Below, piece after piece: positions 3,342 through 64,000 of a stretch of 64,000 bases of DNA. Origin of the DNA: Cyanophora paradoxa CCMP329 (lineage: Eukaryota > Plantae > Glaucophyta). The notes beneath the pieces were generated by a model. It did no database searches. It worked only from the letters and a program-made list of their open reading frames with translations, and had not been told where the DNA came from. Position 1 is the first letter of the stretch. Each line of letters starts with the position of its first letter. The translations under genes were made by a program, and so were the position numbers. Location of the stretch: positions 62,001 to 126,000 of the forward strand of contig QPMI01000621.1 in the NCBI GenBank assembly GCA_004431415.1, in the 5' to 3' direction.

Positions 3342-4132
3342 TGTTGTATACGCATGGACCTCACACCCGGGCAATTCCGCTTCGCTCCATAGCCCCCGAT
3401 TCCATGCGTTTCAAGTGTATACCTCCAGCGTTTCATTAGTAATTTCACCATATACGTCTACCCCGCCGATCCAGCTACGTCTACCGACCCACTCCCTAGG
3501 TGGAAGCCTAGCAATATCTGACGACTATACAAGGCAGAGTTATGAAGAAGAATAGGCGAAGAGGAGCTTGGCCCCCATGCAAGCGGTCTGCAGAGGACCA
3601 CAGATGAATAGTCTAGGCGATATTGATGTGTACATTGAAGCACTTCGTGTCCCAAGAGCGCTCTGGTGCGGCCTCTGGAGATGTGTTGTTGTATGTGCAT
3701 GGACCTCACACCCGGGCAATTCCGCTTCGCTCCATAGCCGCCGATTCCATGCGTTTCAAGTGTATACCTCCAGCGTTTCATTAGTAATTTCACCATATAC
3801 GTCTACCCCACCGATCCAGCAACGTCTTCAGTCCCACTCCCTAGGTCGAAGCCTAGCAATAGCTCATGTCTATTTAGGACAGTGCTGTGAAGAAGAATAG
3901 ACGAAGAGGAGCGCTGCCCCCATGAGCGCGGTCTGCAGAGCAACGAGAAAGAATAGTCTAGGCGATATAGATGAGTACGATGAAGCTAACAGAGGAAGCA
4001 CGTTTAGGTTAATTTTAGGCGAAATGATGAGAACATTGAAGCAACCAGAGGAAAAGCGTTTAGCTCTATCTAGGCGATAATGATGAGTACATTGAAGCAC
4101 TTCGTGTCCCAAGAGCGCTCTGGTGCGGCCTC
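3342..4132 (+). repeat. PLV-1 left terminal inverted repeat (two tandem units, 3342-3686 and 3687-4132)
   Basis: Reverse complement of 25466-26256; mirrored ORFs 3568..3900(+) and 25698..26030(-) translate identically; begins TGTTGTATACGC. Confidence 0.95.
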
Positions 4133-4138
4133 ATCCAC

Positions 4139-4471
4139 TTAATCTGGCTGCTTTTCCGAAACTGGAGTCTTCTCCTTTCTGAAACTTGATAGCAAGGACT
4201 TTCTTCTTTTCATTGGCTTCGGGATATCTGGGGGTGGCCACGACAATCTTCGGCCTTCATCAAGCCAAGGTACAGGTGAATCAGTTCGAGTAAATGGAGA
4301 ATTGGACCTAGAAGTCCTGGGTGTGTTAATAGGCGATACCTGAGTTTCTGGGGTGCGAGAGCCCTCAGTGTCCGATATTTCGAGGTTAATGGTCGTCTCG
4401 CAGCAACTACAATTCAATTTGCTGGTGACGTTGAGATGGAACATATCCATACATTTTCGAAGCAAATCCAT
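4139..4471 (-). CDS. Small conserved viral protein with N-terminal S-x-CC motif and S/P-rich tail
   Basis: N-terminus CMDMFHLNVTSKLNCSCCETTINLEISD matches PLV-2 ORF 50943..51380 CIEMFQLHVVSNCHSPCCDTTVEIEISD. Confidence 0.8.
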   Translation of the reverse strand: MDLLRKCMDMFHLNVTSKLNCSCCETTINLEISDTEGSRTPETQVSPINTPRTSRSNSPFTRTDSPVPWLDEGRRLSWPPPDIPKPMKRRKSLLSSFRKEKTPVSEKQPD

Positions 4472-4509
4472 CTTTTAATGGAAAAATATAAAAAAACAAA
4501 GGAATGCGG

Positions 4510-5337
4510 CTATGGAGCCGTATCGCTGCCGAATATAGGAAAATACCTGTTTGTACCAACATATTCTGCATATGTGTTCTGTTTAGCAATAGCATCGGTT
4601 CTTTCAGCATAAAGGATGCATTTGTAGATACCAAACCTGGTTGCTCTTACCAAAAACTGATAATCTTCTAATCCGAAATTTACACCATGATACGCGATCC
4701 CGAAATTGTCATAGGGTGTGATTACAACCGAAATATTCGGGGTTCCACCTTCTACTTGACAGAGTGCATAAATATCCGGAGGGATATCAACAATTACCTT
4801 ATAATGATCACCAATTTCAACCAGAGAATCAACTACTGATGTTTGCTCATTAACAACAATTGGAAAGATCTTTATAATATATGGTGCATTCATACCGGGG
4901 ACATACGTCCGAATCCGCGTCAGATTGTCGATCGGGTTTGGCGTGTCGTTTACGAAGAGAGGAGCTCCAATAGCTCCGCCAACACGAAGACCATCACCAA
5001 TATATGCGCCGCCATTTCGACAGTTAATAGCTCCAGAACGAGATTCAAAAGAATAAGTCGAAATAGGATCGCCGTAGCTGTCTGGATCTCCATAATGTGA
5101 GCTGAAATTTGCATTCGTAACTAGCAACTTTGTTGTCTTAACTATACCATTATTTTTATCACATCTGAGTTCTTGCAATCGAAGTTTATGTGTAGATCCG
5201 AAGGTATTCATTGTCGGCTGTACCTCTGTTGATTGCAGACCTTCCACATCGTCAAAAGTAGCATGTTGTAGAACGTGATTTGCAGGAGATGAGAGCGAAA
5301 GTTGTGCCGTAACAATACGCTCTATTGATTCAGCCAT
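4510..5337 (-). CDS. Hypothetical protein, probably virion-associated; paralog of 5911..6765
   Basis: 275-aa ORF; shares SL.SPANH..QH, ELR.DKN.G.VKTT.LLV.NANF and GGA.IG.G.RV with the 284-aa ORF. Confidence 0.75.
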   Translation of the reverse strand: MAESIERIVTAQLSLSSPANHVLQHATFDDVEGLQSTEVQPTMNTFGSTHKLRLQELRCDKNNGIVKTTKLLVTNANFSSHYGDPDSYGDPISTYSFESRSGAINCRNGGAYIGDGLRVGGAIGAPLFVNDTPNPIDNLTRIRTYVPGMNAPYIIKIFPIVVNEQTSVVDSLVEIGDHYKVIVDIPPDIYALCQVEGGTPNISVVITPYDNFGIAYHGVNFGLEDYQFLVRATRFGIYKCILYAERTDAIAKQNTYAEYVGTNRYFPIFGSDTAP

Positions 5338-5399
5338 TATTGTTATGACTTAAAGAAAATGAATATATAGAATAACAAGGCAAAAGGAAGACTGTCCAG

Positions 5400-5921
5400 A
5401 TGGAGATCGAAATTGCACATGGAGAAGCTGCTATTCCTATCTATGGACGAGCTGGAATAGTGGCATATTCTTTGATATTAGCAGCGGATGCAGAGCTGGT
5501 AAATGAGAAACGTTGGCGTCTTGATAAACAGGGATATGCTTTATGTAGCATCACTGTAAACGGAAAGAAGACAACAAAATTAATGCATCAATTAATTGTG
5601 GGATTAGTAAATCCAGGGTTTTCTATTGATCACATTAATTGTAATAAACTGGATAACAGACGTGAAAATCTGCGACTTGCGACAAAGCGACAGCAACAGC
5701 TGAACCAGAACCGGCGGGTCACAAACACATCAGGATTCATAGGTGTAAGCTTCAATCAGCAGCTTGGCAAATGGGATGCGCGATATCAGATAAATGGTCG
5801 CAAAAAGCAAATCGGAGTGTTTCAAACTGCTGAAGCTGCTGCTCGTGCCCGCGATGCTTACGCTCTTGAACATACTTCTGAAGCAGACAAGCCGTTCTTG
5901 CGTCTAAATTTTACGGAGTAG
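5400..5921 (+). CDS. HNH endonuclease with C-terminal AP2 DNA-binding domain
   Basis: IDHINCNKLDNRRENLR (HNH); SGFIGVS...W.ARYQING...IGVFQTAEAAARARD (AP2). Confidence 0.9.
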   Translation: MEIEIAHGEAAIPIYGRAGIVAYSLILAADAELVNEKRWRLDKQGYALCSITVNGKKTTKLMHQLIVGLVNPGFSIDHINCNKLDNRRENLRLATKRQQQLNQNRRVTNTSGFIGVSFNQQLGKWDARYQINGRKKQIGVFQTAEAAARARDAYALEHTSEADKPFLRLNFTE

Positions 5922-6765
5922 GATCATCGATTACATCTGGCTCCTGGTAAAATCCGGTTGTAAAGATATCAGCAACATTCACACCACGAAGTGCCGAAAC
6001 AGCTGCTATATCTGTTCTCAGTCCCATTATCATAGTATTGTAAACTCCCACCTCAGTGACAAACAAATCATAAGTAAATGTCAAATTGTTATATACACAA
6101 TATCCCCGACCGAAATGATTTGATGCTTGAACAAAGAATAGGTAATTGTGACCTGGTTGATTGTTGTTTGATCTACACATCGAAAGCATTGCTGTGGGAA
6201 GAGATATATTCCTTCTCACGCGATCAGTTCCTGTTATGGAAATCAACTCTGAATTTTCAAGAGAGACAGATGATGCAACATAGAAGTGAAGAAAAGGTTG
6301 CTGTGCAACAGGTGTATAGAACCGAATTCGTTGTGGATTTTCAACATTTTGTTCAAGGGTATCCGGGACATCATTGTATGCAATCGAAGAAGAGAGTTGA
6401 CCTGAAACTCTGCAACCACCACCAATAAATGCTCCACCTGAACGAATTGTAGCAGCAGCAGAATTCTTGTCGAAATCGAGGGCTTTCAGATCAACACTGT
6501 ATGCATCAGGACCTCCATTTATTGGTTGGAAGAAGTTAGCATTGCTTACGAGTAGTCGAGTTGTTTTAACCACACCTGAATTCTTATCAGCTCTCAGCTC
6601 TTTTACTCGAATCATCGAATTTTTATCGAAAGCATTCCCGTTCGAATTAGGTCGTTCAGTGGATTCCAGACCGCGAACCTCATCATTGACTTCGTGTTGG
6701 CGAAAATGATTTGCAGGGGATCCAAGTGAATAGATAGGTAACTGAACCCGATTATATTCGCCCAT
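5911..6765 (-). CDS. Hypothetical protein, probably virion-associated; paralog of 4510..5337
   Basis: 284-aa ORF with clear N-terminal similarity to the 275-aa ORF. Confidence 0.75.
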   Translation of the reverse strand: MGEYNRVQLPIYSLGSPANHFRQHEVNDEVRGLESTERPNSNGNAFDKNSMIRVKELRADKNSGVVKTTRLLVSNANFFQPINGGPDAYSVDLKALDFDKNSAAATIRSGGAFIGGGCRVSGQLSSSIAYNDVPDTLEQNVENPQRIRFYTPVAQQPFLHFYVASSVSLENSELISITGTDRVRRNISLPTAMLSMCRSNNNQPGHNYLFFVQASNHFGRGYCVYNNLTFTYDLFVTEVGVYNTMIMGLRTDIAAVSALRGVNVADIFTTGFYQEPDVIDDPTP

Positions 6766-6821
6766 TGCTTATTTTACTAAGAAGGAAAGAAAAAAAAGTC
6801 GGCAGACAAGCCAAACTACCA

Positions 6822-7130
6822 TCAAGCCAAAGTGATTAGATTCGCTCCAAGGGCTTGGTAAGCAACAGAAAGAGCTTGAATATTGGCTGTCATTGCTTTG
6901 ATATTGCTATCGCACTCAGAGTATTTAGCAACAGGTTCGCCATATGCCGATTGCGCAAGGACATTAACCAAGAGGTTTTTATATTCATGAACAACCGGTG
7001 ACAGTTTGTTGGTTTGCTGTATCGTTTTTTCGACAGTTTGTAGTGCGGCTACAAGTTTGATAGTATCGAATACAAGAGCAACAGGCTCAGAAGAAGTAGA
7101 AGGAGTTCCACCAAGTGGATACGTCGCCAT
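6822..7130 (-). CDS. Hypothetical small helical protein
   Basis: 102-aa ATG ORF filling the gap between co-oriented genes, with an AT-rich leader. Confidence 0.6.
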   Translation of the reverse strand: MATYPLGGTPSTSSEPVALVFDTIKLVAALQTVEKTIQQTNKLSPVVHEYKNLLVNVLAQSAYGEPVAKYSECDSNIKAMTANIQALSVAYQALGANLITLA

Positions 7131-7161
7131 TTATTATACTGTGACATTTTTATTACGGCAG

Positions 7162-10100
7162 TTAAGCAGCCTGACTGCGCCATTGGTCTATTTGACTTTG
7201 GAGATTTTCACATGTTTGTGTTAAATCTTTGCATTTCTTAGATAATTCTTTAACGGCTTCTATGAGAACTGGAATTAAACCTGTGTATGCAAGGGTTAGA
7301 TAGTTTTCGTGATTTTTACCTACTACTTCTGGTATGACTTTTTCGACATCTTGCGCAATCAGACCTAAATTAACTTTTTGTTTTTCATCACCAATCTTTT
7401 TATAACTCACACCCTGTAATTTCTCGATTGCTGAAAGGGCGCCGGTTATATTTTTAATGTCGGTTTTGTATCTTCTATCACTTCCTTGTGTAAGCCATCC
7501 CCAAAAGTAAGCGTTACCATCATTATAAAAAGCTTGCATTGTTATATCAACTCCATTTCTAAAATGGATCATTTCGTAACCATAACCTTTAATGTATGTA
7601 GTTGATGATGAACCAAAATAAACTCTCCCATTACCTTCACTTGAAGTAATCCAAGTATCAACGGGCCAAGTTGCGCAATTTGGTTTACTAAAAACGTTAT
7701 CCCATGAAATCATCCCATTTGCTGGTGCTGTTCTTCCTTTTTCTTTTGTCCATCCAATCATTCCAATGTGACATCTTCCCTTTCTTGCAACAAATCGAAT
7801 ATGTGTGAAATTCTCACAAAAGAAGGAAGTCCATATTAAACCTTCATGCCACAGTGAATCAGCATAGGTATTTCCTGCATTCTGATAGGTATTTACTCGC
7901 ATTATGTGATTCCATCTATTGTTTCGATAACCTCCAATATCGAAATATCTGCAATTTGTCCAACAGAAATATTGGACATGACATGTTCGCATTCCACTGG
8001 GAACTTCCATTTGCATGTAGTCACTGCTGGTTTGATCATCAGTAATGGTGCTATAAAATCCTTCTACTGGATTGTCTGTTGTAGGTTTCCAACCTGTTCC
8101 CCAAGATCCTACAAAATAAACAGTTGCACTATTCCATCCTGAAACCACATCAAAACTGGTAATGTTTCCAATAGAATTTGTGACATCTGTTAATGTAAGA
8201 TATGATGAGGGGAATGTAGGTTTACTATAAACATTATTCCAATGAATAAAACCGGTTGAACCACCATAAGAACTACTATGTGCGCGATCGTGTGTAAAAC
8301 CAATTCCCATAATGTGAACTCTTCCGACTTTTGGATAAATACGAATGTGAGTAAATCGACCGGCAAGGAAGATTGGGACATTATTAACTCCATTGTGGTA
8401 ACCGTCGCTACTGCCGTCATGTGGCTGATAGTTATTAACTCTCGTAATAAATACAATTGCTCCATTACTACGGACTCCCCAAATCTCAAAATAACGACCA
8501 TTGGTCCACGGTAAATGTGTAAGGAATGCTGTCCCATTAACCAATGCTGTGGGTATTGTATACTGAATCCAAGTAGTTGTAGGAGCTGCTATATCATCGT
8601 ATTCACTGTTGTGTGCATAACTTCCATAATTATATCCTGGATCCCAATACCACCCACCACCGGTTATCCAAGTTCCACTCAATAACTGATAAGCGCCACC
8701 TGCTACTGTGTCATCAAAAGCGTAACATTTTGGAACGTCATAACCATTTCTTTTTAATGTTGCAACATCTATGGTTGTTGCATTTATAGTAGTTCCTGTA
8801 ATTGATGGTGCGCTTACACTTGTAGTAACATTTAAAGTTCCTCCTACCCATAAATTACCATCATTATATGATTTTAATAATGCTAAATCGGAGCCATTGC
8901 GAAACTCCACACAAACATTATCAGAGTTTCCATAACCACGAATATATGTCGTATTACCATTTCCAAACCAAAATCTTTCTATATTGTCTGTTGATTTTAA
9001 CCAATTGTCCACTGTCCATTTTGCTGTTGCTGGAAGGTCTGCGGCTGAGTAAAATGATGGTTTGCTAAATATATTATCCCAAGAGATCATGCCCAATTCA
9101 TTGTCGGTTGCTCTCTGTCTACTCCAACCGAAAACCCCCGTAAGATGAATGCGACCTTTTCGACCTTGAATGTATATCTTTGTGTAAAACTCACAATTGA
9201 TTGAGGCAAACAAAACAGTATTATGTGTCCCATCTTGATTAACTGCCTGGATTCCCTGATATGCATTTATACGTTTTAAGAAATGCTGGTAATTATTGGC
9301 TGTTTGCCCGTAGATATCATAATATCGACAATTCGCCCACGGCATATGCTGAATGTAAAACGATTTCATACCTTCTGGAACTGTCCACCTCATCCAACAA
9401 CCACTGCAATCTTCATCATTATGTGGTGTTGTGTAACATCCTGTTTGTCCTGTTCTTGCGACCCAATTCAAATTCCAATTATTTGCGCTTCTATCTGATG
9501 AAACCACATCTAATTGGTCGAAATCGTAACCTTTTGGTATTGTGGTTCCGCCAATTTGTAAAGTGGTAGCATTCACAGTTCCTGTTACAGTTCCACCTGT
9601 TAGAGGTAGATAATTAGCAAGTGCCGCCGTTAAATCGGTATCTGTAACAAAATCTGTAACAGCTAATTGTAATTCTGTATTTGTAACATAATCTTTGTTT
9701 TCTAAATAATCATCTGTAACAACACCGGAAAGGGTGGTATTGTGTAAGTTTTTCGCCGCCATTCTCTGATTGACTTCTAAGGCACCACCTGTTGTCGTTT
9801 TAATCCATGCCATCTCACATTTTCCGTGATCGTCTGTGGGTTGTCCCACAACAGGAAGGTAGTTTACAACTTTCTCTCTTGTGAACACAATTTTAGGTCT
9901 TGCTCCATCATATGCGCTTTGATCTGTAACGTTAATTTGAATAGCTGCTGAAAAATCGGCTACTTGTCCTGTTTCACCCGGGTGATAATTTGTAACATAG
10001 ATACTGGGGAAAGTATCATTAATTCCTACATTAAAATCGCCATCGTAAATTGTATTCACGATAGAATCCCTCGGTAATCTTACTGCAAGAGTTCCAACCA

Positions 10101-12672: not shown

Positions 12673-12696
12673 TTTTATATAAGCCCCCTTTTAAAA

Positions 12697-44517: not shown

Positions 44518-44523
44518 GGTTTG

Positions 44524-52268: not shown

Positions 52269-52270
52269 GA

Positions 52271-53187: not shown

Positions 53188-53904
53188 TTAGATTTCGTTT
53201 AGGATCGCTTTATCACCCAGAATTGCGGCGGCTTTCTCATTGTAAAATCGAGCTGCGTCTTCCTTTGTGTCACATATTTTGCGCCATCTCTGTTTGTTAT
53301 GCATGAAACTCGCTTCCCACTTTCCAGATCTCGTTTGATTGACACCACGATAACCACTCGAATTCGTTGATTTCAGCAATCTACGAGTTAGATTTACAGG
53401 ATCCACATCATTAAGAACCGCAAGATCGCCGAACAGTTCGGTTGCTTTTGCATTGTATGCTGCTGCGGCTTCTTCTTTCGTGTTGAAGCATCCGAGATTA
53501 TAAGAAATTCCGTTCTTTTGAATTTCAGCTCTCCATTTTCCAGTGTCTTTTCTCTGCATCACTCCTTTGAGACCTGACTTATTTGTTCGTCTCACGCCTG
53601 TGTTAATGACGCTCTCTTGCGGGGTTAAAAAGCGAAGATTGCAACGCCTATTATCCAATTTATCTCTGCTAATGTGATCTACAAAGTGCCCATCGCGGCT
53701 TCCCATAATCCACTTGTGCATGTCAATATTCTTGCCCTTTCCAACATAGCCCCATGCGTAACCTCTGACATTATGAAAATACCACTTACTGATTTTAGTG
53801 ACATGCTCATAGTCTGCTTCATCGACAAGCGCAAATTTGCCTTCTCCATGCTTTCCATTAAGTGCAATTCGCCTAATGCCTTCCATTTGTCCGCCGTATT
53901 CCAT
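53188..53904 (-). CDS. HNH endonuclease with two AP2 domains
   Basis: VDHISRDKLDNRRCNLR; SGLKGV...KWRAEI...EEAAAAYN and SGYRGV...KWEA...EDAARFYN. Confidence 0.9.
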   Translation of the reverse strand: MEYGGQMEGIRRIALNGKHGEGKFALVDEADYEHVTKISKWYFHNVRGYAWGYVGKGKNIDMHKWIMGSRDGHFVDHISRDKLDNRRCNLRFLTPQESVINTGVRRTNKSGLKGVMQRKDTGKWRAEIQKNGISYNLGCFNTKEEAAAAYNAKATELFGDLAVLNDVDPVNLTRRLLKSTNSSGYRGVNQTRSGKWEASFMHNKQRWRKICDTKEDAARFYNEKAAAILGDKAILNEI

Positions 53905-53976
53905 AATACTGTAAATTGTCTTGTCCTTAAATGGGCAAAAGATAAAAAGAACGTCATTTTTTGTCCGACGAATTCC

Positions 53977-55288: not shown

Positions 55289-55335
55289 GAGCGTTTCTTC
55301 TCTTATCTTTGGGATCAGAAAATAATTTAAAGGGC

Positions 55336-56262
55336 TTAGTAGAAATTCATTTCGGGCGGTGCGTCGTAGGTTTCGATTTCAAAAGTGAAATAATGCGCCC
55401 AACCCCCGAAATCTAAGAGAGCGCCATCATGGTCGATGAGTTTAATCGTCAAGCGGTCGAACGATTTTAATTCGCGGAATTCACGAATGAGAGGCACCGT
55501 AGTGGACGTGTCGAAGTGGTAGATATCACCATGTTCGAGTTCCTGTGGGATTGGAATGCGCATGAAATAACCATCGACGTGCTTGTTGACTGAGCGAATA
55601 AACGGCGCAAATTCGTCAATATATAGCCAGATCATCGCCGCCGGGGTCTCATCTCCACGAGTATAGCCGCGAATGCGCCGATTGAGTGTCACAGTTCCCG
55701 TCCCAGGATTGAATACAAGGAATGTATCGCTTGCAAAAGGGGTAAATGTCTCGTAAACATATAGTTGAATTTCTTTGAAACCGAATATTGCGAGTTTCTT
55801 AGCGATTGCTTTGCGGTTACTGGATTTTCTGAGTGTGGCTTCGGAAGCCTGAGAGAACTTGAACCAAAAGTTACTATCACTGAAAAACTCATAGATCTTT
55901 GAAGTAGTATTATAGCGGCATTTAATATATTTTCCACCGAAGTCTGAAAGGCGAGCTGCTTCGAGTCTTTCTGTGACTTTTGCGGCAAGGTCGTCCTTGG
56001 TGTAAAATCCTTTGGGGATTGTGATGGTCACGAATCCTGAATCCGAAGCTGTGACCGAGAAAAAGAGTTCCATGCGCTCGATGGTTGCACCAGTGGCATC
56101 GATATCGTTCGTCACAGTCGAAAGAACATTGGGAACCGTTGCCTGCACCAGGCGCACCGATTTTACGTTGTCATAGCGACGGGGTAATGTCACTACATAC
56201 TGGTTTGGCTGAGTAAACTCCTCATCGCGATCATCGCTCGAAAAGCTCAGGTATTCTTTCAT
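55336..56262 (-). CDS. Minor capsid (penton-like) protein 1
   Basis: FSSDDRD...PNQYVVTLPRRYDNVKSVRLV.A.VPN, ITIPKGFY, RLTIKLID.DG.LLDFGG..HYFTFEI. Confidence 0.82.
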   Translation of the reverse strand: MKEYLSFSSDDRDEEFTQPNQYVVTLPRRYDNVKSVRLVQATVPNVLSTVTNDIDATGATIERMELFFSVTASDSGFVTITIPKGFYTKDDLAAKVTERLEAARLSDFGGKYIKCRYNTTSKIYEFFSDSNFWFKFSQASEATLRKSSNRKAIAKKLAIFGFKEIQLYVYETFTPFASDTFLVFNPGTGTVTLNRRIRGYTRGDETPAAMIWLYIDEFAPFIRSVNKHVDGYFMRIPIPQELEHGDIYHFDTSTTVPLIREFRELKSFDRLTIKLIDHDGALLDFGGWAHYFTFEIETYDAPPEMNFY

Positions 56263-56278
56263 CTTACTATAATAGATT

Positions 56279-57124
56279 ATGAAAAGAATAACAATAAATT
56301 GCGACAGTAGAGACCTTGAAAACGGCGTGCTGCATTTGAAAACGCGCCTTAATAATGTTCGACGATTTCGTGTGCTATCCGCTGAGATTCCAAATAGCTC
56401 TTATGTTGTTCCGCCCGATCAGACAATAACTATAACGCTTCTAAACGAAGAGCCCACAGTAATCCCCGCATCCAAAATGATAGCACCGATTCCCAGCGTA
56501 AACGATTATTATTACGTCGATGCTGATAACGAACGATACCCAAAAGAGAGAGCTCTAAACAGTGATGCTTTACTCGGATTTGCGGGCGGTTCTTTTGATC
56601 CGCTCGGTCTCTTCCCGGTTTCCTATTCTCTCGCTCTGTCTACGAACCGCTTCGTGTTCTCATCTCCGAATAGCCCTTTTACATTAGAGTCCTCAGACCA
56701 GGAGTTCTGTGACTGTCTCGGCATAGAACCCGGAGTGGTTTACGCCAGCACACCAGAACCAGTGCCGGTTCCACTCAGAGATTACCCCAGTCGCTACGCG
56801 ATTATATGCCCGAAAATGGTCGACTTTAATGCAATTCCATATATTTACCTTGATATCGAAGAGCTCCGCCCGTTTACCAAATTCGCAGCGGTTACTGGGA
56901 GACAGAACAATTTCGACGACTCCTATCTATTGCGAATTCAGATGAACTCGGACTTTGGTAGATATTCCTTTTACCACGAACCGAGCGCAAGCATCCCTTT
57001 CGTAAATGTCACATCGCAACTCGATTTAGATCGTCTCACAATTTCGCTTCGAAAATGGCGGGGATCTGTTGCAGATATAAACGGTCTCTCATACTCGTTC
57101 CAGCTCGAAGTGATCACCGATTAA
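56279..57124 (+). CDS. Minor capsid (penton-like) protein 2
   Basis: INCDSRD, NVRRFRVLSAEIPNS, YIYLDIEEL, RIQM, LDRLTISLR......DINGLSYSFQLEV. Confidence 0.82.
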   Translation: MKRITINCDSRDLENGVLHLKTRLNNVRRFRVLSAEIPNSSYVVPPDQTITITLLNEEPTVIPASKMIAPIPSVNDYYYVDADNERYPKERALNSDALLGFAGGSFDPLGLFPVSYSLALSTNRFVFSSPNSPFTLESSDQEFCDCLGIEPGVVYASTPEPVPVPLRDYPSRYAIICPKMVDFNAIPYIYLDIEELRPFTKFAAVTGRQNNFDDSYLLRIQMNSDFGRYSFYHEPSASIPFVNVTSQLDLDRLTISLRKWRGSVADINGLSYSFQLEVITD

Positions 57125-57159
57125 GCGCTGTCTCGTCAGCGCGCAACGACCGAAGGAAG

Positions 57160-58653
57160 TCACACGTAGTAGCCCTCGAAATCTATTCGGCATGCCGAAG
57201 CTACGTTCGTCGTGAGCACCCAGATTACGAGGGTTCTCACAGATCTCGGGTTCGCTAAGAAATGTTCGTCGGGTTCTACACTTCCGGCTATTTGATTTGC
57301 ATTGGTAAACACTCTCGTCGCGCCGGCTTCTGTGTATGTGACAAGCGCCGAAACTCCCGGAGTTAATTGGTAATCGATTTCAAACGTTTTAATGTAGTTT
57401 CCATTTGCAGCCGGCTTCATTTTTATAGAGGAAAGCATAAACAGACGCGGAAAATCAATGCGTAAATAATTGCCTCCCGACCTACTACCTTGCGGCGGGT
57501 TGGTAAATCCCACCCACCCCGTAGCATTTGACCAGCGGGCATCAGAAGCTGTGCCAAATTCCGCAATAAAGGCGCTATTATCGAGCGGCACCCAGTTAGA
57601 CTCCGGGGGTGCGCTTACATCTGTGCACCCGGACAGATTAATTATGGGAACATCGCCCTCTGAGATATTCATCGTCAGCACTGAATACATCGCATTAAAA
57701 TACGTTTGCTGTGCGGAAACAAAGGCGAGCGCTTCCGTTTCCAAATATTGCAGGTGCGTCGTTGTGATTGTATCGAGGGTCATTTTATCTTTCGGTAAAG
57801 GAACGCTCAGCTTATAGTAGCGATCGTAATTCTGATCATCGTTTCTGGGTAAAAGTTCCAGTAGCTTTACGTGGGCGTTTAGATCGCTCGACTCTAAGAA
57901 CATGCTGAGAATTGGCGATCCTGTGGCGCTTAGCATCCATTGCACGATCCCCCAATTTTTCATGGTGTCATACGAATATCCCGCGGTTGCTTTATCGGCG
58001 TCTTGGACGTGACCCGCCGTAATCGAGACCACGATAAGCTCCTCCTCGCAAGAGTTTCCGAATAAAGTGCGGGCAAATGTGTAACCGCAAACCCCGGGCG
58101 AATTATTTCCACTCATGCAACCATCGATTAAACAATATGTTCTTCCGGCGACTGTGACTTGTTTCGGCTCGAAATAGGTCGGAGCAGCCGAGGTAGCCCT
58201 TGCAGCATCGCGCACAAGCATCCCATTAATATCTTCATCGTTGCTTGAAATAAAAACGGGGGACATTAAGACCGTGTCGAACGCAGTTACTATGGTGGGT
58301 TTGTAGAGATCCGCCATGGTCGCTGAGCCGCAGAGTTCCAGAGCCACAGCTTCTAAGTTAGTTGCTTCATACTTGGGGCGTTGCACAATCGATGTAAGCA
58401 CTCGTGGATTCGCGAAAATCAGCGGTAGTTTCGCTTTGTAGAGCGCCAGAATATCAGTGGCAGTATATTTAGGGGCGCCATCGGTTCCCTTGATATTCAA
58501 TAGGAGCGCGATTAATCCACCTGTGGATGTTCCCGCAAAGCAGTCGAATAGCTGTTGGATTCGTTTACCGGTTTGGGCTTCAATCTGTGCCAGTATAGCA
58601 GCCTCGATTATTCCACGCGACCCTCCACCACTCAGACATAAAACGGTCTTCAT
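57160..58653 (-). CDS. Patatin-like phospholipase with C-terminal F5/8 type C-like domain
   Basis: LSGGGSRG, GTSTG, ATSAAPTYF, DG; C-terminal YLRIDF...SSIKM...YIKTFEIDY...RVFTNAN...NPRSVR...CRIDFEG. Confidence 0.9.
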   Translation of the reverse strand: MKTVLCLSGGGSRGIIEAAILAQIEAQTGKRIQQLFDCFAGTSTGGLIALLLNIKGTDGAPKYTATDILALYKAKLPLIFANPRVLTSIVQRPKYEATNLEAVALELCGSATMADLYKPTIVTAFDTVLMSPVFISSNDEDINGMLVRDAARATSAAPTYFEPKQVTVAGRTYCLIDGCMSGNNSPGVCGYTFARTLFGNSCEEELIVVSITAGHVQDADKATAGYSYDTMKNWGIVQWMLSATGSPILSMFLESSDLNAHVKLLELLPRNDDQNYDRYYKLSVPLPKDKMTLDTITTTHLQYLETEALAFVSAQQTYFNAMYSVLTMNISEGDVPIINLSGCTDVSAPPESNWVPLDNSAFIAEFGTASDARWSNATGWVGFTNPPQGSRSGGNYLRIDFPRLFMLSSIKMKPAANGNYIKTFEIDYQLTPGVSALVTYTEAGATRVFTNANQIAGSVEPDEHFLANPRSVRTLVIWVLTTNVASACRIDFEGYYV

Positions 58654-58696
58654 TATCTTATATACTTCTTATATATCTTCTTTGTTTATAAAGAGG

Positions 58697-61600
58697 ATGT
58701 CGTTCCTGAATCCGCGACCAGACGCACGAGTTATTAATTCGACCACTCAGATAGAGGACACTGATCAGGTAAACACTGAAATTCGCGGGTCTCTGAAAAT
58801 AAACTTCAATGCAGACCGCGAAGATCCAGTCAGTGGAACACCGAGCAGACCCGCAGCTTTGCAGTTAATGAACGTCGAGAAAGGGGATCATAAACTTGGA
58901 ATCGACTTTTTACTTGATGATAACGAACGAAACAGAGTCGCCAGCATTCAGGCAACCCGCCAGCTACCGAAAACGGTGCGATATAATCGTAGGAACATCC
59001 CGAAAGCATTCGATAGAGGTCGCTTAAACTTCTTCATTCAAGATGAGAGCGGTTTCCAAAATGCAGCTATGAGAATCGTGGATAATAGCACACTTATAGC
59101 GGGAGTATCCACACGGAAAACAAAGGTAGAGGTCGTCCATGATCTCTCAGCAGGTAATCTAACGACGAGTAACATTACAGCAAGTAACATCACTACGGAT
59201 ACCCTAAATGTAAACTCGCTCAACTCCGAGTCGTTTTTCGCCACCAATGTCGCAACCTGTAACCTAAACATCGAATCCTTTGTGATTCAGAAGAGCGAAT
59301 CGGTTCCCCAGATAACAGAGGGTGTTTTCACATTAGACCCCGCGAAACCGACCTTAGAAATTGTCGAAAATGGGAACGTTGTCGATATAATTGGCGCCAA
59401 TGCTCCGAATGTGAGATCCTTAGCACTTGATAAAACGACTATATCATTTGCAGAAGAAATTCCGGCTTTTACCACAGAGAAACAGGCACTGAGAACAGAC
59501 CATGTTCACATAACCAGAGACAATATAAACGATCTTTTAGGCAAGGACATCGTAAAGGCGTTTTTGGAGTTTGAAAGGAGCAAGAACACCAAAGATTCCA
59601 GCCAGGATGGAACCCTCACGACCCACACAACCGAAATCGCGGCTTTGCAATCAGAAATTAATGCTCTGTTTGCAGCAGATGGAGCGCTTGCAATTACCTT
59701 AGCCCATATTCTGTCGAAAAGGAACATATACCCCGCGACTGACAACACATACCGAGTTGGTTTATCGAATCTGAGATGGTCAGAGTTGCATGGAGTTTCC
59801 ATGTTTGCCTCCAATTTAATCCTTCCATTTAATCACTCACTCCGACCTAATCAGATTCTTACCAATGATAATGCACTGATCAGCTACACCGACTATAATA
59901 GTAACCTTTCCCGCTCAGTTTCGCGGACTGAGACCTACACTGTCGAGGGATACCCTCAGCAGCTCGCAAATGGGGTCTATGTCGCTTACGTAGGCAAACC
60001 TACATATACATTCACTTGGGATCAGTTGGGTGTCACAGGTTTCGAGACGAATATACCCACTGTTTCATTGGTGGATCACACTACTTATTATAATCCTATC
60101 TATAACAATAATGAATCTAATAAAGCATTTATCCAAAATGTCACCTCCACAGGGTTTCAGGTTTCGTTTGTCATTAACGAGACATACAATTTACTTATCA
60201 TCCGAAACAACTCATTGAGTTCCGAAGCTACTATTAGTTTCACTCTCACCATCAATTACATTAGCCCTGTATTCGATAGCAAACCCAGAGTAAAGGTTTA
60301 CCGAGATTTACAAGGTAGCAATATCGTGCCCTTCTCACAGAATTTCGATCTTGGGGCGAATTCTTTGAGGTGGAACACAGTTTATACTTTGAATGCAAAC
60401 ACCTGTAATATTGTGGTCGCAGGGTCATCGGCTACTATTGGAGATCTGACCGCCCCTTTTAGAAAGGAGTATCTTAAAGAACTGTATATTACAAAGTCTG
60501 ATTTACCAGATGCTATTTCGTTGGTGCTCTCCCCGACTCCCAGCATCTCATACCACAATGTGAAAGACACAAGTAATGTAGTGCGGAGTGGAAGCAAAGT
60601 ATTCCAGGCATCCGAGATATCAGCAACAACATATAGATATCTTGCAGGGGTTCCAGCGAATTTTAATTTCACATTTGAGACACCATTTGTTTCCCCTCCT
60701 ACTATTGAAATAACAGACACGAATTTGTATGTGGTCAATGATGGGTCAGCTACATCACTTCAAAATGCACCAGCCGGCTACTCCCCATTTGTTGCAACTA
60801 ACATAACAACCACCGGCTTCACACTTGTCGGAAATGCAACAGTGACATATGCTCTGTCAGGGTATCCTGTTGGGTTGTATTTTTCGAAATTTAATCTCTC
60901 TGTTATCCCAGCAGTGTCCCTTGCTCCTCCCTTTACTATCAGTTGGAAGGCAACAGGAACTATTCCGCGATTTGACCCCGAAGATCGATTAAAAATAAGG
61001 TATCCTCTCGATGTGACCGACCTCCATACTACGAGGATCAATGGGCAGAATTTCGTGTTTAATGGAACCAATGCGACTTTGATCGATAATAGAGTCACAA
61101 ATAATTACTTTTTCGATTCTCGATATATTAATACTTGCAACATTGTCATACAGAAAACGTTTGAGGATCGCAGTAAGACCTTAACAGTGACCTTGCCCAC
61201 TCACTCGAATGTCTCAGATGGATTTTACTATTATCTGTTAAATCGCTATTACACCTCTTATATTCCATATCCTTCTGAGACTGTCAACATGAGCTATCCC
61301 AGAGTCACCCTAACATCGACCAATGCTGACTTCTTTGGATCCACAGACTTCATGAGAGACTTCTTTTATTTTACATCCTCCACAGATGGTCTCTTAGTTT
61401 ATTACTCTTACAAATATGAGTCAATTGCTACCCAAATCGAAAGCCACCCAAACACTGATGTGATCACAGCAGGCGATAAGAAATATATAAAAACCGCTTC
61501 CCCATGGGTGTGCACTGTCCGGCTTGATGACAGATACACTCCTAACCTAAATAACATTGGATTGCACTCGACATGCAATATTTATGTGCAAGGTGCGATT

Positions 61601-62410
61601 TCGGCTACCAAATATTTTGAGGGTGGAAATTGTGATACAGGACATAGGTTGCTATCGCGAAATGGACTCTTTGAGTCATTCAGTGGGACGGCTCTACCGC
61701 CTTTTATCAGGGACACAGTCTATGACACCACATGCAATATTTGGGTGTGTCGATCTGTGAGCAATCCACCTGTGACACAGGAATTATACAAGTATCTCGC
61801 AGATACCTATGGTGCAATCTCAGGATCCTCCACAGGAAATCCAGCGACGGCTCCCATCGTGTTTGCAAATGCATACACAGCGCCGACCTCATTAGCAGGG
61901 TCGACGGAACCGCCCCCAGATTCAGATCCTAACTTGCCTCCTGATGAGTCAGACCCACAGACCCCACCTACCACTGATCCTACAACACCTAATAATCCCA
62001 CAAATCCTACTAATCCAGTCGGAGCACCGGGAACTGATCCAGGAACGTTAGTGCTTATGATTCTCTTACCGATTCTCGGTGCTCTTGGGCTTGTGCTTGC
62101 ATACAAATTCCGAGCTTTATGTTGTGCTTGCATAGACAGAACCATTGCAGGAGCAGGTAATAAATACTCCACACCTGAGCTGAATGTGACCCAAACAGCC
62201 GAAGGAGATGTGGGCTTAGAGGTGAGGTCAGCCGAGGGGCATGGTCTAAGTGTTGTGAGAACTGATCAACCACCAGCAAGTAGGGCAGCACCCAAAAAAT
62301 CACGAGCACAAGAATTGGCAGAGCAAACGATGAACAATGATAGAGACTTTATGGCGGAAATGGCACAGCGAGAAGGGAGAATATATGAACATGTTCCAAA
62401 TGTTATGTAA
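58697..62410 (+). CDS. Large fibre-like protein with C-terminal P/T-rich linker and predicted transmembrane helix
   Basis: N-terminus homologous to the PLV-1 fibre (FNADR, SRPAAL, GRL.F..Q); IYP..DNTY..G....RW fibre motifs; LVLMILLPILGALGLVLAY followed by CCAC. Confidence 0.8.
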   Translation: MSFLNPRPDARVINSTTQIEDTDQVNTEIRGSLKINFNADREDPVSGTPSRPAALQLMNVEKGDHKLGIDFLLDDNERNRVASIQATRQLPKTVRYNRRNIPKAFDRGRLNFFIQDESGFQNAAMRIVDNSTLIAGVSTRKTKVEVVHDLSAGNLTTSNITASNITTDTLNVNSLNSESFFATNVATCNLNIESFVIQKSESVPQITEGVFTLDPAKPTLEIVENGNVVDIIGANAPNVRSLALDKTTISFAEEIPAFTTEKQALRTDHVHITRDNINDLLGKDIVKAFLEFERSKNTKDSSQDGTLTTHTTEIAALQSEINALFAADGALAITLAHILSKRNIYPATDNTYRVGLSNLRWSELHGVSMFASNLILPFNHSLRPNQILTNDNALISYTDYNSNLSRSVSRTETYTVEGYPQQLANGVYVAYVGKPTYTFTWDQLGVTGFETNIPTVSLVDHTTYYNPIYNNNESNKAFIQNVTSTGFQVSFVINETYNLLIIRNNSLSSEATISFTLTINYISPVFDSKPRVKVYRDLQGSNIVPFSQNFDLGANSLRWNTVYTLNANTCNIVVAGSSATIGDLTAPFRKEYLKELYITKSDLPDAISLVLSPTPSISYHNVKDTSNVVRSGSKVFQASEISATTYRYLAGVPANFNFTFETPFVSPPTIEITDTNLYVVNDGSATSLQNAPAGYSPFVATNITTTGFTLVGNATVTYALSGYPVGLYFSKFNLSVIPAVSLAPPFTISWKATGTIPRFDPEDRLKIRYPLDVTDLHTTRINGQNFVFNGTNATLIDNRVTNNYFFDSRYINTCNIVIQKTFEDRSKTLTVTLPTHSNVSDGFYYYLLNRYYTSYIPYPSETVNMSYPRVTLTSTNADFFGSTDFMRDFFYFTSSTDGLLVYYSYKYESIATQIESHPNTDVITAGDKKYIKTASPWVCTVRLDDRYTPNLNNIGLHSTCNIYVQGAISATKYFEGGNCDTGHRLLSRNGLFESFSGTALPPFIRDTVYDTTCNIWVCRSVSNPPVTQELYKYLADTYGAISGSSTGNPATAPIVFANAYTAPTSLAGSTEPPPDSDPNLPPDESDPQTPPTTDPTTPNNPTNPTNPVGAPGTDPGTLVLMILLPILGALGLVLAYKFRALCCACIDRTIAGAGNKYSTPELNVTQTAEGDVGLEVRSAEGHGLSVVRTDQPPASRAAPKKSRAQELAEQTMNNDRDFMAEMAQREGRIYEHVPNVM

Positions 62411-63325
62411 CAACCTTAATTTTTGTAGTATTCCATAATAGAGTATAATGACTGAACCCATAGTAGAAACGACAATAAAGAATGCTGTCTTGGATAATCA
62501 ATTTTATATAACCCATGCCAATATACCCAGTGAATCCAATGACCTGATAGTAGATCTAAAAGGGTATGTGATGGGAGCTATGGCTTCCAATCTGTGGAAT
62601 GACATTTTTGGTTACGAGTTTGGTCACATATATGACATAGCAAATGGGATTGGCTATGTGGATGCAATGGCAGGAACAGCCTTTCGAAATCTTAATTGCA
62701 ACTGTGTGGGAGGGTGGATGTTTCAGATCTGTTCAAATGTCGATCCTACTATTGATCCAGCTACTGTGACCTTTGATTGCAATCTATTCGCCCCTAAAAC
62801 CATTTTCTCCATCACTTGCAACCTTGTATGTTCAGATGTGCCCATTGTAGCACCTGTAATAGGTGCATCCAATATGTATATCCAAAGAAATCCGGTCGTC
62901 CATACAGGTGCCGAATTTATATTGGGCGACAACACCCCAATCAGCCGCCTCGAATTACCCACGAATTTCACATTTAATCTCGTGGATGAGTTCCCTAACA
63001 GTCAAAGTCTCATGTATTTCACCTCTGAAAATCGCCTTTCGGGTGCATTCTCACCAATTGAGCTGTCTATACCAAAGCAAAAGGTGAGCTATAAGGAGCT
63101 TACAGATGTGCCGGCGGGATTCAGTGGGAAGTGGAGTGATATCATTCAGAAGCCGACTTGGAGTAGTGTAGCATACACAGGAAATTACTATGATCTTGTA
63201 AATCCTCCCGATTTCACAAGCTATATACCTCGTTGGATCGATCAAGGTGTAATTATATCAGAATCTACACTACCTTTCAATGGGACATGGGATAGATTAT
63301 TTACTAAACCGAATTTACATGCTGT

Positions 63326-63608
63326 TTTTTTTTTTGAGAGACTACGGTGGGGCGAACCCCCCGTAGGTAGTGATATTAAAGACAACAAAGCAATCACAAA
63401 TCAAAGATACAGTAAACTAGCACAAAATATATACAGAATCAAGAGGGATCACGAGAAGGGACACGATCAGAAGAACGCAAAAGATAAGGAGAACGAGCAC
63501 GAGGAGAAGGAGTAGAAGAGCTCAAGGGCGTCGATGCAAAAGTACTAGTCACACTAGAACGACGAGGAGCACGGGGACGCAGCAAATAAGGAGAACGAGC
63601 ACGAGGAA
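63326..63608 (-). mobile_element. Short poly(A)-tailed retroposon (SINE or 5'-truncated LINE 3' end)
   Basis: T11 at the left edge (poly-A on minus strand), preceded on minus by hairpin CTACGGGGGG-TTCG-CCCCACCGTAG; purine-skewed body unlike the flanks; no clear TSD. Confidence 0.7.
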
Positions 63609-63808
63609 CTACAAGTGGAAATTATGATGATCTGATAAACACACCAAACCTACATGCTGTGGCTACAAGTGGAAATTATGATGATCTGATAAACACACCA
63701 AACCTACATGCTGTGGCTACAAGTGGAAATTATGATGATCTGATAAACACACCAAACCTACATGCTGTGGCTACAAGTGGAAATTATGATGACCTGATTA
63801 ACACACCT
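63609..63808 (+). repeat. 54-bp coding tandem repeat (~3.7 copies; ATSGNYDDLINTPNLHAV)
   Basis: Directly visible; resembles VATSGSY.DL.NKP tail-fibre repeats. Confidence 0.9.
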
Positions 63809-64000
63809 ACTTCGCCACCTACTCACAATCACAGCATCGAGTTGCTCACGAATTTCGGTAGCTATGTAAATCCAAATGCATATGTGCAACAGGGGACAGC
63901 GGATGTAGTTATACCTAATCAAGTTTATACAGTAGGGCAAGTGTTTACAGCATCAGGAACCGTTACGTTTTCTACCCCATATTATAGTGATCCAATAGTT

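What the first reader, a model, noticed from the sequence alone, without database searches (positions are those of the whole stretch)
3342..64000. Two related endogenous Polinton-like viruses define a family with an unusual conserved virion cassette
Seen: PLV-1 and PLV-2 are divergent in sequence yet keep the same order and relative orientation (inverted as a block): fibre<- patatin-F5/8-> <-penton2 penton1-> MCP-> ATPase-> coiled-coil protein. They also share a pol->integrase pair, an S-x-CC protein and an AT-hook-type protein. Known: Polintons/PLVs are 15-25-kb DJR-capsid elements with A32 ATPase, pPolB and rve integrase, and Polintons usually carry an adenain-like protease. Here no adenain is visible, the MCP N-terminus looks NCLDV-like, there are two pentons, and the fibres are phage-like. 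Inference: a distinct and possibly undescribed PLV lineage.
Basis: partly seen in the sequence, partly recalled or inferred. Interest (0 to 1): 0.85.

Follow-up and report, generated by a model that had tools for sequence, protein, structure and literature searches.

The report
Catalogued glaucophyte Polinton-like virus family
Two small DNA viruses integrated side by side, most likely in the alga Cyanophora paradoxa, share the same block of predicted virus-particle genes but carry different replication enzymes; they belong to a virus family whose capsid genes were already listed in 2023 and whose gene content was tabulated in 2025, although its place in the virus tree remains unsettled.

Summary
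PLV-1 (3342-26256, 791-nt perfect TIRs) and PLV-2 (about 42840 to past the window end) keep fibre, patatin, two pentons, MCP, ATPase and a coiled-coil gene in the same order and relative orientation, at 27-44% protein identity with no DNA match. The MCP model is a double jelly roll and penton 1 a penton-type single jelly roll; no adenain was found. Corrections: the polymerases are of two types (pPolB; pPolB-helicase-endonuclease fusion), the pol-integrase pair is flipped relative to the cassette, and only PLV-1's fibre is phage-like by profile. 'Undescribed' fails. Bellas 2023 lists Cyanophora paradoxa MCPs of both types (PLV-2's about 95% identical) with giant-virus HHpred hits, 366 hits in two 'new' clusters. 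Bulzu 2025 tabulates 156 glaucophyte elements: no protease, lipases, S74 fibres, patatin-discoidin fusions. Missing protease, phage-like fibres, paired pentons and swapped replicases are all reported in other PLVs. Still open: the lineage is unnamed and unplaced in the papers read and has almost no environmental relatives. Earlier notes of this scan report the same replicase swapping on other DNA of this genome.

The parts
3342..26256 (.). PLV-1, complete 22.9-kb endogenous Polinton-like virus
   Evidence: TIRs, GC 43%, gene set
3342..4132 (.). PLV-1 left TIR, 791 nt, begins TG, holds two ~300-nt direct copies 345 nt apart
4139..4471 (-). S-x-CC protein, 110 aa, homologous to 50943-51380
   Evidence: z 16; no family hit
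4510..6765 (-). Two paralogous unknown ORFs (4510-5337, 275 aa; 5911-6765, 284 aa; 34% identical) with an HNH-AP2 gene (5400-5921, +) between them; no counterpart in the visible part of PLV-2
7162..12672 (-). PLV-1 fibre, 1836 aa, C-terminal Peptidase_S74 chaperone, phage tail-fibre profile hits
   Evidence: Pfam E 1.5e-16; PHROG tail fibre E 4.9e-27
12697..14180 (+). Patatin phospholipase (GGGxRG, GTSTG, DGA intact) plus likely discoidin/F5-8 domain; split by a frameshift near 13845 that short-read contigs do not share
14636..15552 (-). Penton 2 (inferred from homology to penton 1); split by a frameshift near 15239 that short-read contigs do not share
15535..16536 (+). Penton 1 (minor capsid protein)
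   Evidence: 29% to 55336-56262, whose model is penton-like
16588..17976 (+). [quoted passage not shown]
   Evidence: 65% to Cyanophora paradoxa protein P0001
17997..18737 (+). A32-type packaging ATPase
   Evidence: Pox_A32 E 1.9e-8
18747..19376 (+). Conserved coiled-coil-type protein of the cassette
   Evidence: 27% to 51585-52268, z 12
19324..19899 (-). HNH-AP2 homing-type endonuclease
20585..21745 (-). rve (DDE) integrase
21699..24458 (-). Protein-primed PolB (PF03175), 919 aa; motifs A and B present, motif C missing, break at about nt 21957 (codon 834)
   Evidence: (loose end at 21957)
25466..26256 (.). PLV-1 right TIR, ends CA; no target-site duplication with the left flank
42840..64000 (.). 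PLV-2, at least 21 kb, left end approximate, right end beyond the window; abuts a Ty3/gypsy pol gene after its RNase H domain
43752..44144 (+). S-adenosylmethionine decarboxylase
   Evidence: AdoMet_dc E 1.5e-11; 66 of 156 glaucophyte elements in PMC12220804 Table S6
44524..45906 (-). rve (DDE) integrase
45926..50176 (-). pPolB palm (motifs A, B, C as RTDC) + superfamily 1 helicase + C-terminal endonuclease VII/HNH, 1416 aa (Tlr1-like pPolB-S1H type)
   Evidence: architecture as described in PMC11071308
50405..50818 (-). Small basic protein with AT-hook-like motifs
   Evidence: AT_hook E 0.003
50943..51380 (-). S-x-CC protein
51585..52268 (-). Coiled-coil-type protein
52271..53137 (-). A32-type packaging ATPase
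   Evidence: Pox_A32 E 1.7e-10
53188..53904 (-). HNH-AP2 endonuclease, optional: contigs of two DNA runs join 53183 to 53968 without it
53977..55288 (-). Major capsid protein, split by two single-base gaps (near 55097 and 55148) that short-read contigs do not share
   Evidence: near-identical MCPs in PMC10120064 Table S2
55336..56262 (-). Penton 1, single jelly roll with insertion
   Evidence: model; VIA-align Z 16.2 to a PBCV-1 capsid chain, 11.3 Sputnik chain N, 11.1 mavirus penton; DUF5901 E 1.1e-5
56279..57124 (+). Penton 2 (inferred)
   Evidence: 33% over 86 aa to penton 1, z 12; not folded separately
57160..58653 (-). Patatin phospholipase with likely discoidin/F5-8 C-terminal domain, intact, 497 aa
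58697..62410 (+). Fibre-position protein, 1237 aa: N-terminus shared with the PLV-1 fibre, weak H-lectin hit, predicted transmembrane helix at 1117-1135, no S74 domain
62448..64000 (+). Second fibre-like gene with 18-aa repeats, interrupted by a ~280-nt poly(T)-led insertion at 63327-63608 and cut by the window end

Best explanation
These are two integrated copies, from two subfamilies, of a multi-copy Polinton-like virus family most likely resident in the glaucophyte Cyanophora paradoxa, already catalogued by its capsid genes, in which a conserved block of predicted virion genes is paired with exchangeable replication genes. Mechanism, step by step. Shown: linear element with long TIRs (PLV-1), rve integrase, A32 ATPase, patatin with intact catalytic motifs, S74-ended fibre (PLV-1), two polymerase types, many divergent copies in DNA runs. 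Predicted by folding: double-jelly-roll MCP and penton-type fold of penton 1. Inferred from related viruses: the integrase inserts the linear genome by its ends; the pPolB (PLV-1 type) or the pPolB-helicase fusion (PLV-2 type) copies it by protein priming; MCP trimers and pentons build an icosahedral particle that the ATPase fills, with no adenain maturation step; the fibres attach to the capsid through their shared N-terminal ~140 residues and bind the cell surface through variable distal parts; the patatin-discoidin protein binds glycans and breaches a membrane on entry. The virion genes stay together because their products must fit one another, while the pol-integrase module is swapped and flipped by recombination. 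This PLV-1 copy likely cannot replicate unaided, since its polymerase lacks motif C; the other four breaks are likely long-read errors or copy-specific lesions. Dependence on a giant-virus helper is unknown.
For: P0001, the only hit of 7991 candidates (65% identity), is an EukProt Cyanophora paradoxa protein and is printed as a confirmed-candidate MCP in PMC10120064 Table S2 with an iridovirus HHpred hit; the same table prints PLV-2-type MCPs, one differing from ORF 53977-54903 at 15 of 308 positions by my visual comparison. Table S4 gives 366 MCP hits in that genome, 272 and 94 in two clusters labelled 'new'. PMC12220804 Table S6: of 156 glaucophyte elements 0 have any of nine protease profiles, 139 Pox_A32, 97 minor capsid, 89 lipase, 85 rve, 66 AdoMet_dc, 49 PF03175, 40 HNH_3, 37 S74, 34 SF1 helicase, which matches the genes seen here; its text names patatin-discoidin fusions in glaucophyte PLVs. 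Folds. Multi-copy: 20 of 24 listed runs, all one organism code, hold 54-63% of the cassette's words; 904-2155 contigs per DNA run lie on 14 kb of PLV-1 with hundreds of variant sites. Replicase mosaicism is reported as general.
Against: I could not show that this very window is among the published elements, and the host is inferred at species level only. The published tables give counts, not gene order, so the cassette's conservation across the family is shown here for 2 elements only. Only 2 of the 156 elements matched the MCP profiles of PMC12220804, so the family is catalogued but not placed. The MCP and penton models are of low confidence (mean pLDDT 56.9 and 52.2). No target-site duplication flanks PLV-1, so integrase-mediated insertion at this site is not shown. 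No particle, transcript or activity was observed.
Confidence: 0.85

Rival explanations
1. The family lies on the giant-virus side of the tree, among the small Nucleocytoviricota-related viruses (Mriyavirus, Zora, Zephyr, Alpensee groups), rather than among Polisuviricotina proper.
For: MCP model ranks PBCV-1 (Z 24.7, rmsd 3.9, 330 aligned) and faustovirus (23.2) well above mavirus (14.5) and Sputnik (14.0); penton 1 ranks a PBCV-1 chain (Z 16.2) above virophage pentons (11.3, 11.1) and hits DUF5901; Atlas neighbours carry Capsid_N/Capsid_NCLDV (score 0.98, but recognition 1834, below the tool's 2300 mark); 15 of 156 glaucophyte elements hit an NCLDV minor-capsid profile and 0 the PLV one; preprint 10.1101/2025.04.19.649669 reports Mriyaviricetes-related regions in a glaucophyte assembly (which elements is not visible to me).
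Against: No solved Polinton or PLV MCP appears among the listed structural hits, and PMC10120064 says most Polinton/PLV MCP models are closer to NCLDV capsids, so the ranking is not diagnostic. 107 of 156 glaucophyte ATPases hit the PLV profile and 1 the NCLDV profile. No VLTF2/3, RuvC or HUH gene was found (HUH motif in 0 of 13 unassigned ORFs). TIRs, pPolB and rve are Polinton-type traits.
Confidence: 0.25
2. The elements are divergent members of an already named group, most plausibly group 2 Maverick-Polintons/Gosseviruses (Polintoviricetes) that lost the protease, or an Aquintoviricetes subgroup.
For: pPolB plus rve plus phospholipase is the gene set of group 2 Maverick-Polintons and Gosseviruses; a module without protease is typical of Aquintoviricetes; PMC8502044 noted divergent adintovirus-like PolB and integrase variants in Cyanophora contigs; an adintovirus and a MELD protein appear in the BFVD list (ranks 37 and 48).
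Against: The Cyanophora clusters carry no group name in Table S4 by my column count (clusters 21 and 29); 2 of 156 elements hit the Polinton/PLV MCP profiles; protease, a core gene of Gosseviruses and group 1, is not found.
Confidence: 0.2
3. The lineage is wholly undescribed.
For: No main text read names or places it: 0 mentions of Cyanophora in PMC10120064, 10.64898/2026.06.19.733378 and 10.64898/2026.10.13.758929; no Pfam or PHROG family for the MCP.
Against: Its MCP sequences and gene-content counts are in published supplements and two of its domain fusions are in a main text.
Confidence: 0.05
4. Both elements are dead relics, or the arrangement is partly an assembly product, so the cassette says little about a living virus.
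For: Five reading-frame lesions in virion or replication genes plus an insertion in a fibre gene; PLV-1's flanks do not form one target site; virus-derived genes are methylated and silent in C. paradoxa according to PMC12344493.
Against: TIRs are 100% identical; contigs of independent DNA runs carry an extra base at or next to all four frameshift positions; catalytic motifs of patatin, integrase and the PLV-2 polymerase are intact; protein conservation without DNA similarity implies long selection.
Confidence: 0.15

Closest known systems
Cyanophora paradoxa / Glaucocystophyceae endogenous PLVs (Bellas et al. 2023, PMC10120064, Tables S2 and S4; Bulzu et al. 2025, PMC12220804, Table S6 and fibre section)
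   Same: Same MCP types (65% for PLV-1, about 95% for PLV-2), NCLDV-type HHpred hits, no protease, A32 ATPase, rve, lipase with discoidin, S74 fibre, AdoMetDC, HNH, both pPolB and SF1-helicase replicases
   Different: Nothing shown to differ. Gene order, the divergent penton pair and the phylogenetic position are not given in the parts of these papers that I read.
Aquintoviricetes (Gezel-14T/PgVV, TsV-N1 groups)
   Same: Size, DJR MCP + penton + A32 ATPase without protease, phage-like fibres, Tlr1-like pPolB-S1H replicase in PLV-2
   Different: MCP not recognised by the PLV MCP profiles used in PMC12220804 (2 of 156); rve with a full-type pPolB in PLV-1; two pentons
Polintoviricetes (Maverick-Polintons groups 1 and 2, Gosseviruses)
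   Same: TIRs, pPolB and rve integrase, phospholipase as in group 2 and Gosseviruses
   Different: No adenain/Ulp1 protease found; MCP highly divergent; ends are TG...CA and no target-site duplication was seen
Mriyaviricetes and the Zora, Zephyr and Alpensee groups (PMC11253617; bioRxiv 10.64898/2026.06.19.733378)
   Same: Small genome with NCLDV-like capsid module; Zora often has rve and TIRs, Zephyr has pPolB or PolB-SF1 fusions and a lipase domain
   Different: No HUH, VLTF2, VLTF3 or RuvC detected; smaller than 35-45 kb; the ATPase scores as PLV-type in PMC12220804 Table S6; Mriya48 not tested
Trimcap group B PLVs
   Same: Two penton genes in some members
   Different: Three MCP genes there, one here

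Membership tests
Polinton-like virus, broad sense | Double-jelly-roll MCP | tested here: met
   Model matches DJR capsids end to end: VIA-align Z 24.7, rmsd 3.9, 330 aligned; Foldseek E 1.9e-16; model pLDDT 56.9
Polinton-like virus, broad sense | [quoted passage not shown] | tested here: met
   Penton 1 model: Z 11.1, rmsd 2.8, 128 aligned to mavirus penton; Z 16.2 to a PBCV-1 chain. Penton 2 by homology only
Polinton-like virus, broad sense | A32-like packaging ATPase | tested here: met
   Pox_A32 above cut-off in both elements
Polinton-like virus, broad sense | 15-40 kb with terminal inverted repeats | tested here: met
   PLV-1 22.9 kb with 791-nt TIRs; PLV-2's right end lies outside the window
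Published Cyanophora PLV family | [quoted passage not shown] | tested here: met
   65% to P0001, which is Table S2 gene_47449; PLV-2 MCP part about 95% to gene_3321 by visual comparison. Which of the two cluster numbers applies was not determined
Published Cyanophora PLV family | Gene content: no protease; lipase, rve, S74 fibre, AdoMetDC, pPolB or SF1 replicase | tested here: met
   against Table S6
Polintoviricetes (Maverick-Polintons) | pPolB and rve integrase | tested here: met
   PLV-1 PF03175 (motif C lost in this copy) + rve; PLV-2 pPolB-S1H + rve
Polintoviricetes (Maverick-Polintons) | Adenain/Ulp1-type maturation protease | tested here: not met
   No Pfam hit; Q-x(3-6)-CG motif in 0 of 70 frames; called genes cover 93% of PLV-1's interior. 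Holds for PLV-1; PLV-2 is incomplete; two 275-284-aa ORFs remain unassigned
Polintoviricetes (Maverick-Polintons) | MCP/ATPase inside the Maverick-Polinton or Gossevirus clades | not testable with these tools
Polintoviricetes (Maverick-Polintons) | 5-6-bp target-site duplication | tested here: not met
   No shared 2-10-mer between the PLV-1 flanks; flanks appear to come from different loci
Aquintoviricetes | Reduced morphogenetic module without protease | tested here: met
   definition from PMC12220804
Aquintoviricetes | MCP of the TsV, PgVV or Dino groups | not testable with these tools
   No profiles on hand; indirect evidence against: 2 of 156 glaucophyte elements matched the published MCP profiles
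Mriyaviricetes | HUH endonuclease | tested here: not met
   HUH motif in 0 of 13 unassigned ORFs; no profile hit; PLV-2 incomplete
Mriyaviricetes | VLTF2, VLTF3, RuvC | tested here: inconclusive
   No Pfam hit in the ORFs scanned; remote homologues could be missed
Mriyaviricetes | NCLDV-related MCP by phylogeny | tested here: inconclusive
   Structural ranking favours NCLDV MCPs but is not diagnostic; no tree built
Mriyaviricetes | Mriya48 envelope protein | not testable with these tools
   No profile available

The most novel reading that the evidence does not exclude
The glaucophyte family is a deep, class- or order-level lineage between Polintons and giant viruses: a giant-virus-type capsid and penton pair packed into a 23-kb Polinton-style integrating genome, with hundreds of copies in a culturable alga. 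It would be the first group of the NCLDV-related small viruses with pPolB and rve whose host is in culture, and its two divergent pentons would build two kinds of vertex or a mixed vertex carrying different fibres, one of them membrane-anchored.
Probability: 0.25. Interest if true: 0.6.

Novelty: already known. Interest (0 to 1): 0.3.

Why it matters
As it stands the finding re-finds a catalogued family and adds modest description: a fixed seven-gene virion block at 27-44% identity, a divergent penton pair, a shared fibre anchor domain, and a clean case of replicase exchange and inversion. It would matter more if trees placed the family next to the giant viruses: the 2026 framework preprint lists NCLDV-related small viruses such as Zephyr with no known host, whereas this family sits in an alga that grows axenically and has a methylome, so induction, proteomics and cryo-EM of an NCLDV-like small virion would become practical.

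Tried and rejected
No own genome was held, so the cassette could not be surveyed across copies. Environmental relatives: IMG/VR scans with the PLV-1 MCP, P0009 and P0002 found none; JGI metagenome scans with the MCP alignment and the ATPase pair found none; the ATPase found nothing among 50,697 phage records. These are word-seeded searches and do not show absence. Of the 7 hits, three (P0003, P0004, P0006) are long repetitive proteins and were dropped as compositional; P0001, P0002, P0005 and P0007 were kept. Sequence searches of PDB with the MCP and its alignment gave nothing below E 0.27; the patatin C-terminal domain alone gave nothing relevant. The Atlas gave no usable hit for ORF 5911-6765. 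No tRNA or Rfam match in the window. No RNA holder listed for the PLV-1 cassette; the three guessed-RNA runs laid gave 3, 13 and 14 contigs, mostly on the small insertion in PLV-2; this says nothing on expression. No MCP or ATPase tree was built, for lack of a reference set. Earlier-findings look-ups by sequence, words and relatives were empty. Rejected: a shared polymerase; homology of ORFs 4510/5911 to the second PLV-2 fibre (z below 0); similarity of PLV-2's left end to the PLV-1 TIR (only 10-11-nt matches).


Full report
What was checked. I checked boundaries, gene homology, folds, relatives, read support and the literature.

Anatomy. PLV-1 spans 3342-26256 between 791-nt inverted repeats that are 100% complementary, at 43% GC in a 65-69% GC setting. 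It has no target-site duplication: the left flank is a long GC-rich ORF, the right flank an inverted copy of the 5' region of a Ty3/gypsy element. PLV-2 starts at about 42840, just after the RNase H domain of that gypsy pol gene, and runs beyond 64000. Pfam finds Pox_A32, patatin, rve and HNH-AP2 in both, Peptidase_S74 and DNA_pol_B_2 in PLV-1, AdoMet_dc and DUF5710 in PLV-2 (40 proteins scanned).

The cassette is real. Eleven of 20 PLV-1 proteins have a tblastn counterpart in PLV-2 while blastn finds no DNA match. Shuffle-controlled scores are far above chance for patatin (z 127), ATPase (61), integrase (49), MCP (49), penton 1 (43), penton 2 (24), fibre N-terminus (24), S-x-CC (16) and the coiled-coil protein (12), at 27-44% identity. 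The small basic proteins are not shown to be homologous (z 2.3).

The replication module is not shared. The polymerases align only around motif A (z 5.4). PLV-1 has a PF03175 pPolB; PLV-2 has a palm domain with motif C as RTDC followed by a Dda-like SF1 helicase and an endonuclease VII domain, the pPolB-S1H architecture of PMC11071308 (passages read). The pol-integrase pair faces the cassette in PLV-1 and faces away in PLV-2. Such replicase turnover is reported as general in two 2026 preprints (10.64898/2026.10.13.758929, abstract, section 10 part 1 and section 11 read; 10.64898/2026.06.19.733378, parts 1-4 of 5 read). The PLV-1 polymerase lacks motif C: similarity to a full-length relative stops at residue 833, where that relative has 244 more residues including a DTDS motif against 86 here, and contigs of run X1 diverge from the window at exactly 21957, codon 834. 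This copy therefore has an internal deletion, real or from assembly.

Folds. The MCP model (6-sequence alignment, mean pLDDT 56.9, pTM 0.56) matches double-jelly-roll capsids over its length: PBCV-1 at Foldseek E 1.9e-16, and by VIA-align PBCV-1 Z 24.7 (rmsd 3.9, 330 aligned), faustovirus 23.2, PRD1 15.8, mavirus 14.5, Sputnik 14.0, with unrelated folds near 7. The top named BFVD hits are NCLDV MCPs. The penton 1 model (pLDDT 52.2) matches a 167-residue PBCV-1 capsid chain (Z 16.2, rmsd 3.0, 148 aligned; that this chain is the penton is my recall), Sputnik chain N (11.3) and the mavirus penton (11.1). Penton 2 was not folded; it is a paralogue of penton 1 (z 12). No protease was found: no Pfam hit, the Q-x(3-6)-CG motif (recalled adenain/Ulp1 signature) in 0 of 70 frames, and called genes cover 93% of both interiors. 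Two paralogous 275-284-aa ORFs remain unassigned and PLV-2 is incomplete.

Fibres. PLV-1's 1836-aa protein ends in an S74 chaperone and hits phage tail-fibre profiles. PLV-2's 1237-aa protein shares only the N-terminal ~140 residues, has no PHROG hit and carries a strongly hydrophobic 19-mer at 1117-1135. The F5/8 domain behind patatin is only weakly supported by my searches (E 0.21-0.23 to factor VIII chains) but such fusions are reported for glaucophyte PLVs.

Relatives and host. The PLV-1 MCP has one hit among 7991 scored candidates, P0001 at 65%, an EukProt protein of Cyanophora paradoxa. The full HMMER scan of 1.84 billion representatives gave 7 hits, of which 4 are real relatives and 3 were dropped as repetitive. 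P0002 (58% to the PLV-2 MCP part) and ATPase P0011 (67%) both come from Logan contigs with a longest length of 3816 nt, likely a third subfamily; P0005, P0007 and P0009 are distant metagenomic MCPs at 23-28%. Five scans of IMG/VR and JGI contigs found nothing. Twenty of 24 listed runs, all under one organism code, hold 54-63% of the cassette's words, and laid contigs show many divergent copies. They also carry an extra base at or beside all four frameshifts (near 13845, 15239, 55097, 55148), so these breaks are not the family norm.

Prior description. PMC10120064 (passages and section 9 of the main text, supplementary file 2 by search plus parts 26, 28, 29; the file is held cut) does not mention Cyanophora in its main text, but Table S2 prints six C. 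paradoxa MCPs with HHpred hits to iridovirus, ascovirus and Pyramimonas virus capsids, including P0001 itself and two of the PLV-2 type; one differs from ORF 53977-54903 at 15 of 308 positions by eye. Table S4 counts 366 hits, 272 and 94 in two clusters marked 'new', numbers 21 and 29 and without a group name by my column count. PMC12220804 (passages, sections 9 and 13 part 1, Table S6) lists 156 glaucophyte elements with 0 proteases, 139 A32, 97 minor capsids, 89 lipases, 85 rve, 66 AdoMetDC, 49 PF03175, 37 S74 and 34 SF1 helicases, and only 2 matching its MCP profiles. The traits flagged as unusual are reported elsewhere: no protease, S74 fibres nearly everywhere and patatin-discoidin fusions, two pentons in Trimcap B, NCLDV-like MCP models for most Polintons and PLVs. 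PMC8502044 (passages) noted adintovirus-like variants in Cyanophora contigs; PMC12344493 (passages) reports methylated virus-derived genes there; 10.1101/2025.04.19.649669 (passages) reports Mriyaviricetes-related regions in a glaucophyte assembly; PMC11253617 (passages) supplied the mriyavirus core genes. Seven full-text searches returned no paper devoted to this family or naming it; figures, Zenodo files and preprint supplements could not be seen and may place it.

Against my reading. I did not show that this window is among the published elements, gene-order conservation rests on two elements, both models are low-confidence, and no tree was built. The evidence on placement is split: capsid and penton folds lean to giant viruses, the ATPase profile counts (107 PLV-type against 1 NCLDV-type of 156) and the absence of HUH and VLTF genes lean away.

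Verdict. Interest 0.3; the open question worth a short follow-up is its phylogenetic placement. Earlier notes of this scan on other pieces of the genome (read after my reading was set) report the same capsid-constant, replicase-variable pattern; they are not independent evidence.

Noticed in passing
window 26257-36986: A 10.7-kb palindrome-like block: two ~3.1-3.6-kb arms 99% complementary around about 4.3 tandem copies of a ~708-nt unit. The right arm runs into the first ~20 nt of a gag-like ORF; the left arm is cut at the same gag start by the PLV-1 TIR. Possibly a fold-back duplication of a retroelement 5' region.
   Followed up: partly
window 36966-42867: Ty3/gypsy-type retroelement (gag-like ORF, aspartyl protease, RT, RNase H) that stops before an integrase domain where PLV-2 begins; PLV-2 likely inserted into it.
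   Followed up: partly
window 63327-63608: A ~280-nt insertion led by a poly(T) run interrupts the second PLV-2 fibre gene; DNA contigs skip it, summed depth there is about three times that of the neighbouring bins, and two guessed-RNA runs cover it. Likely the 3' end of a host retroposon in reverse orientation.
   Followed up: partly
window 58697-62410: The fibre-position protein of PLV-2 has a predicted transmembrane helix (1117-1135) after a Pro/Thr-rich stretch and before a CCAC motif and a ~100-aa tail, unexpected for a fibre of a naked capsid.
   Followed up: partly
window 53188-53904; 5400-5921; 19324-19899: HNH-AP2 genes behave as mobile inserts: contigs join 53183 to 53968 without the PLV-2 copy, PLV-1 has two copies 62% identical, and contigs of three runs join 19899 to 14560, suggesting another site or an inversion in sister copies.
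   Followed up: partly
window 24459-25465: A 1-kb non-coding stretch between pol and the right TIR of PLV-1 with a ~145-nt direct repeat 672 nt apart; a candidate promoter or origin region.
   Followed up: no
window 42860-43050: Five copies of CTCAGTAA at the left end of PLV-2, possibly terminal binding sites; no likeness to the PLV-1 TIR.
   Followed up: no
window 7-3555: A 1182-aa intron-free GC-rich ORF with no Pfam hit is cut by the left TIR of PLV-1 and reads through into it; origin unknown.
   Followed up: no
window 43752-44144: A prokaryote-type S-adenosylmethionine decarboxylase (polyamine pathway) as cargo; common in glaucophyte elements per PMC12220804 Table S6 but not discussed in its main text.
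   Followed up: partly
P0005, P0007, P0009 (ENA metagenome contigs of 3.2, 10.5 and 11.9 kb): Distant MCP relatives (23-28%) from unnamed metagenomes; their gene context could not be fetched and would test whether the cassette exists outside this host.
   Followed up: partly
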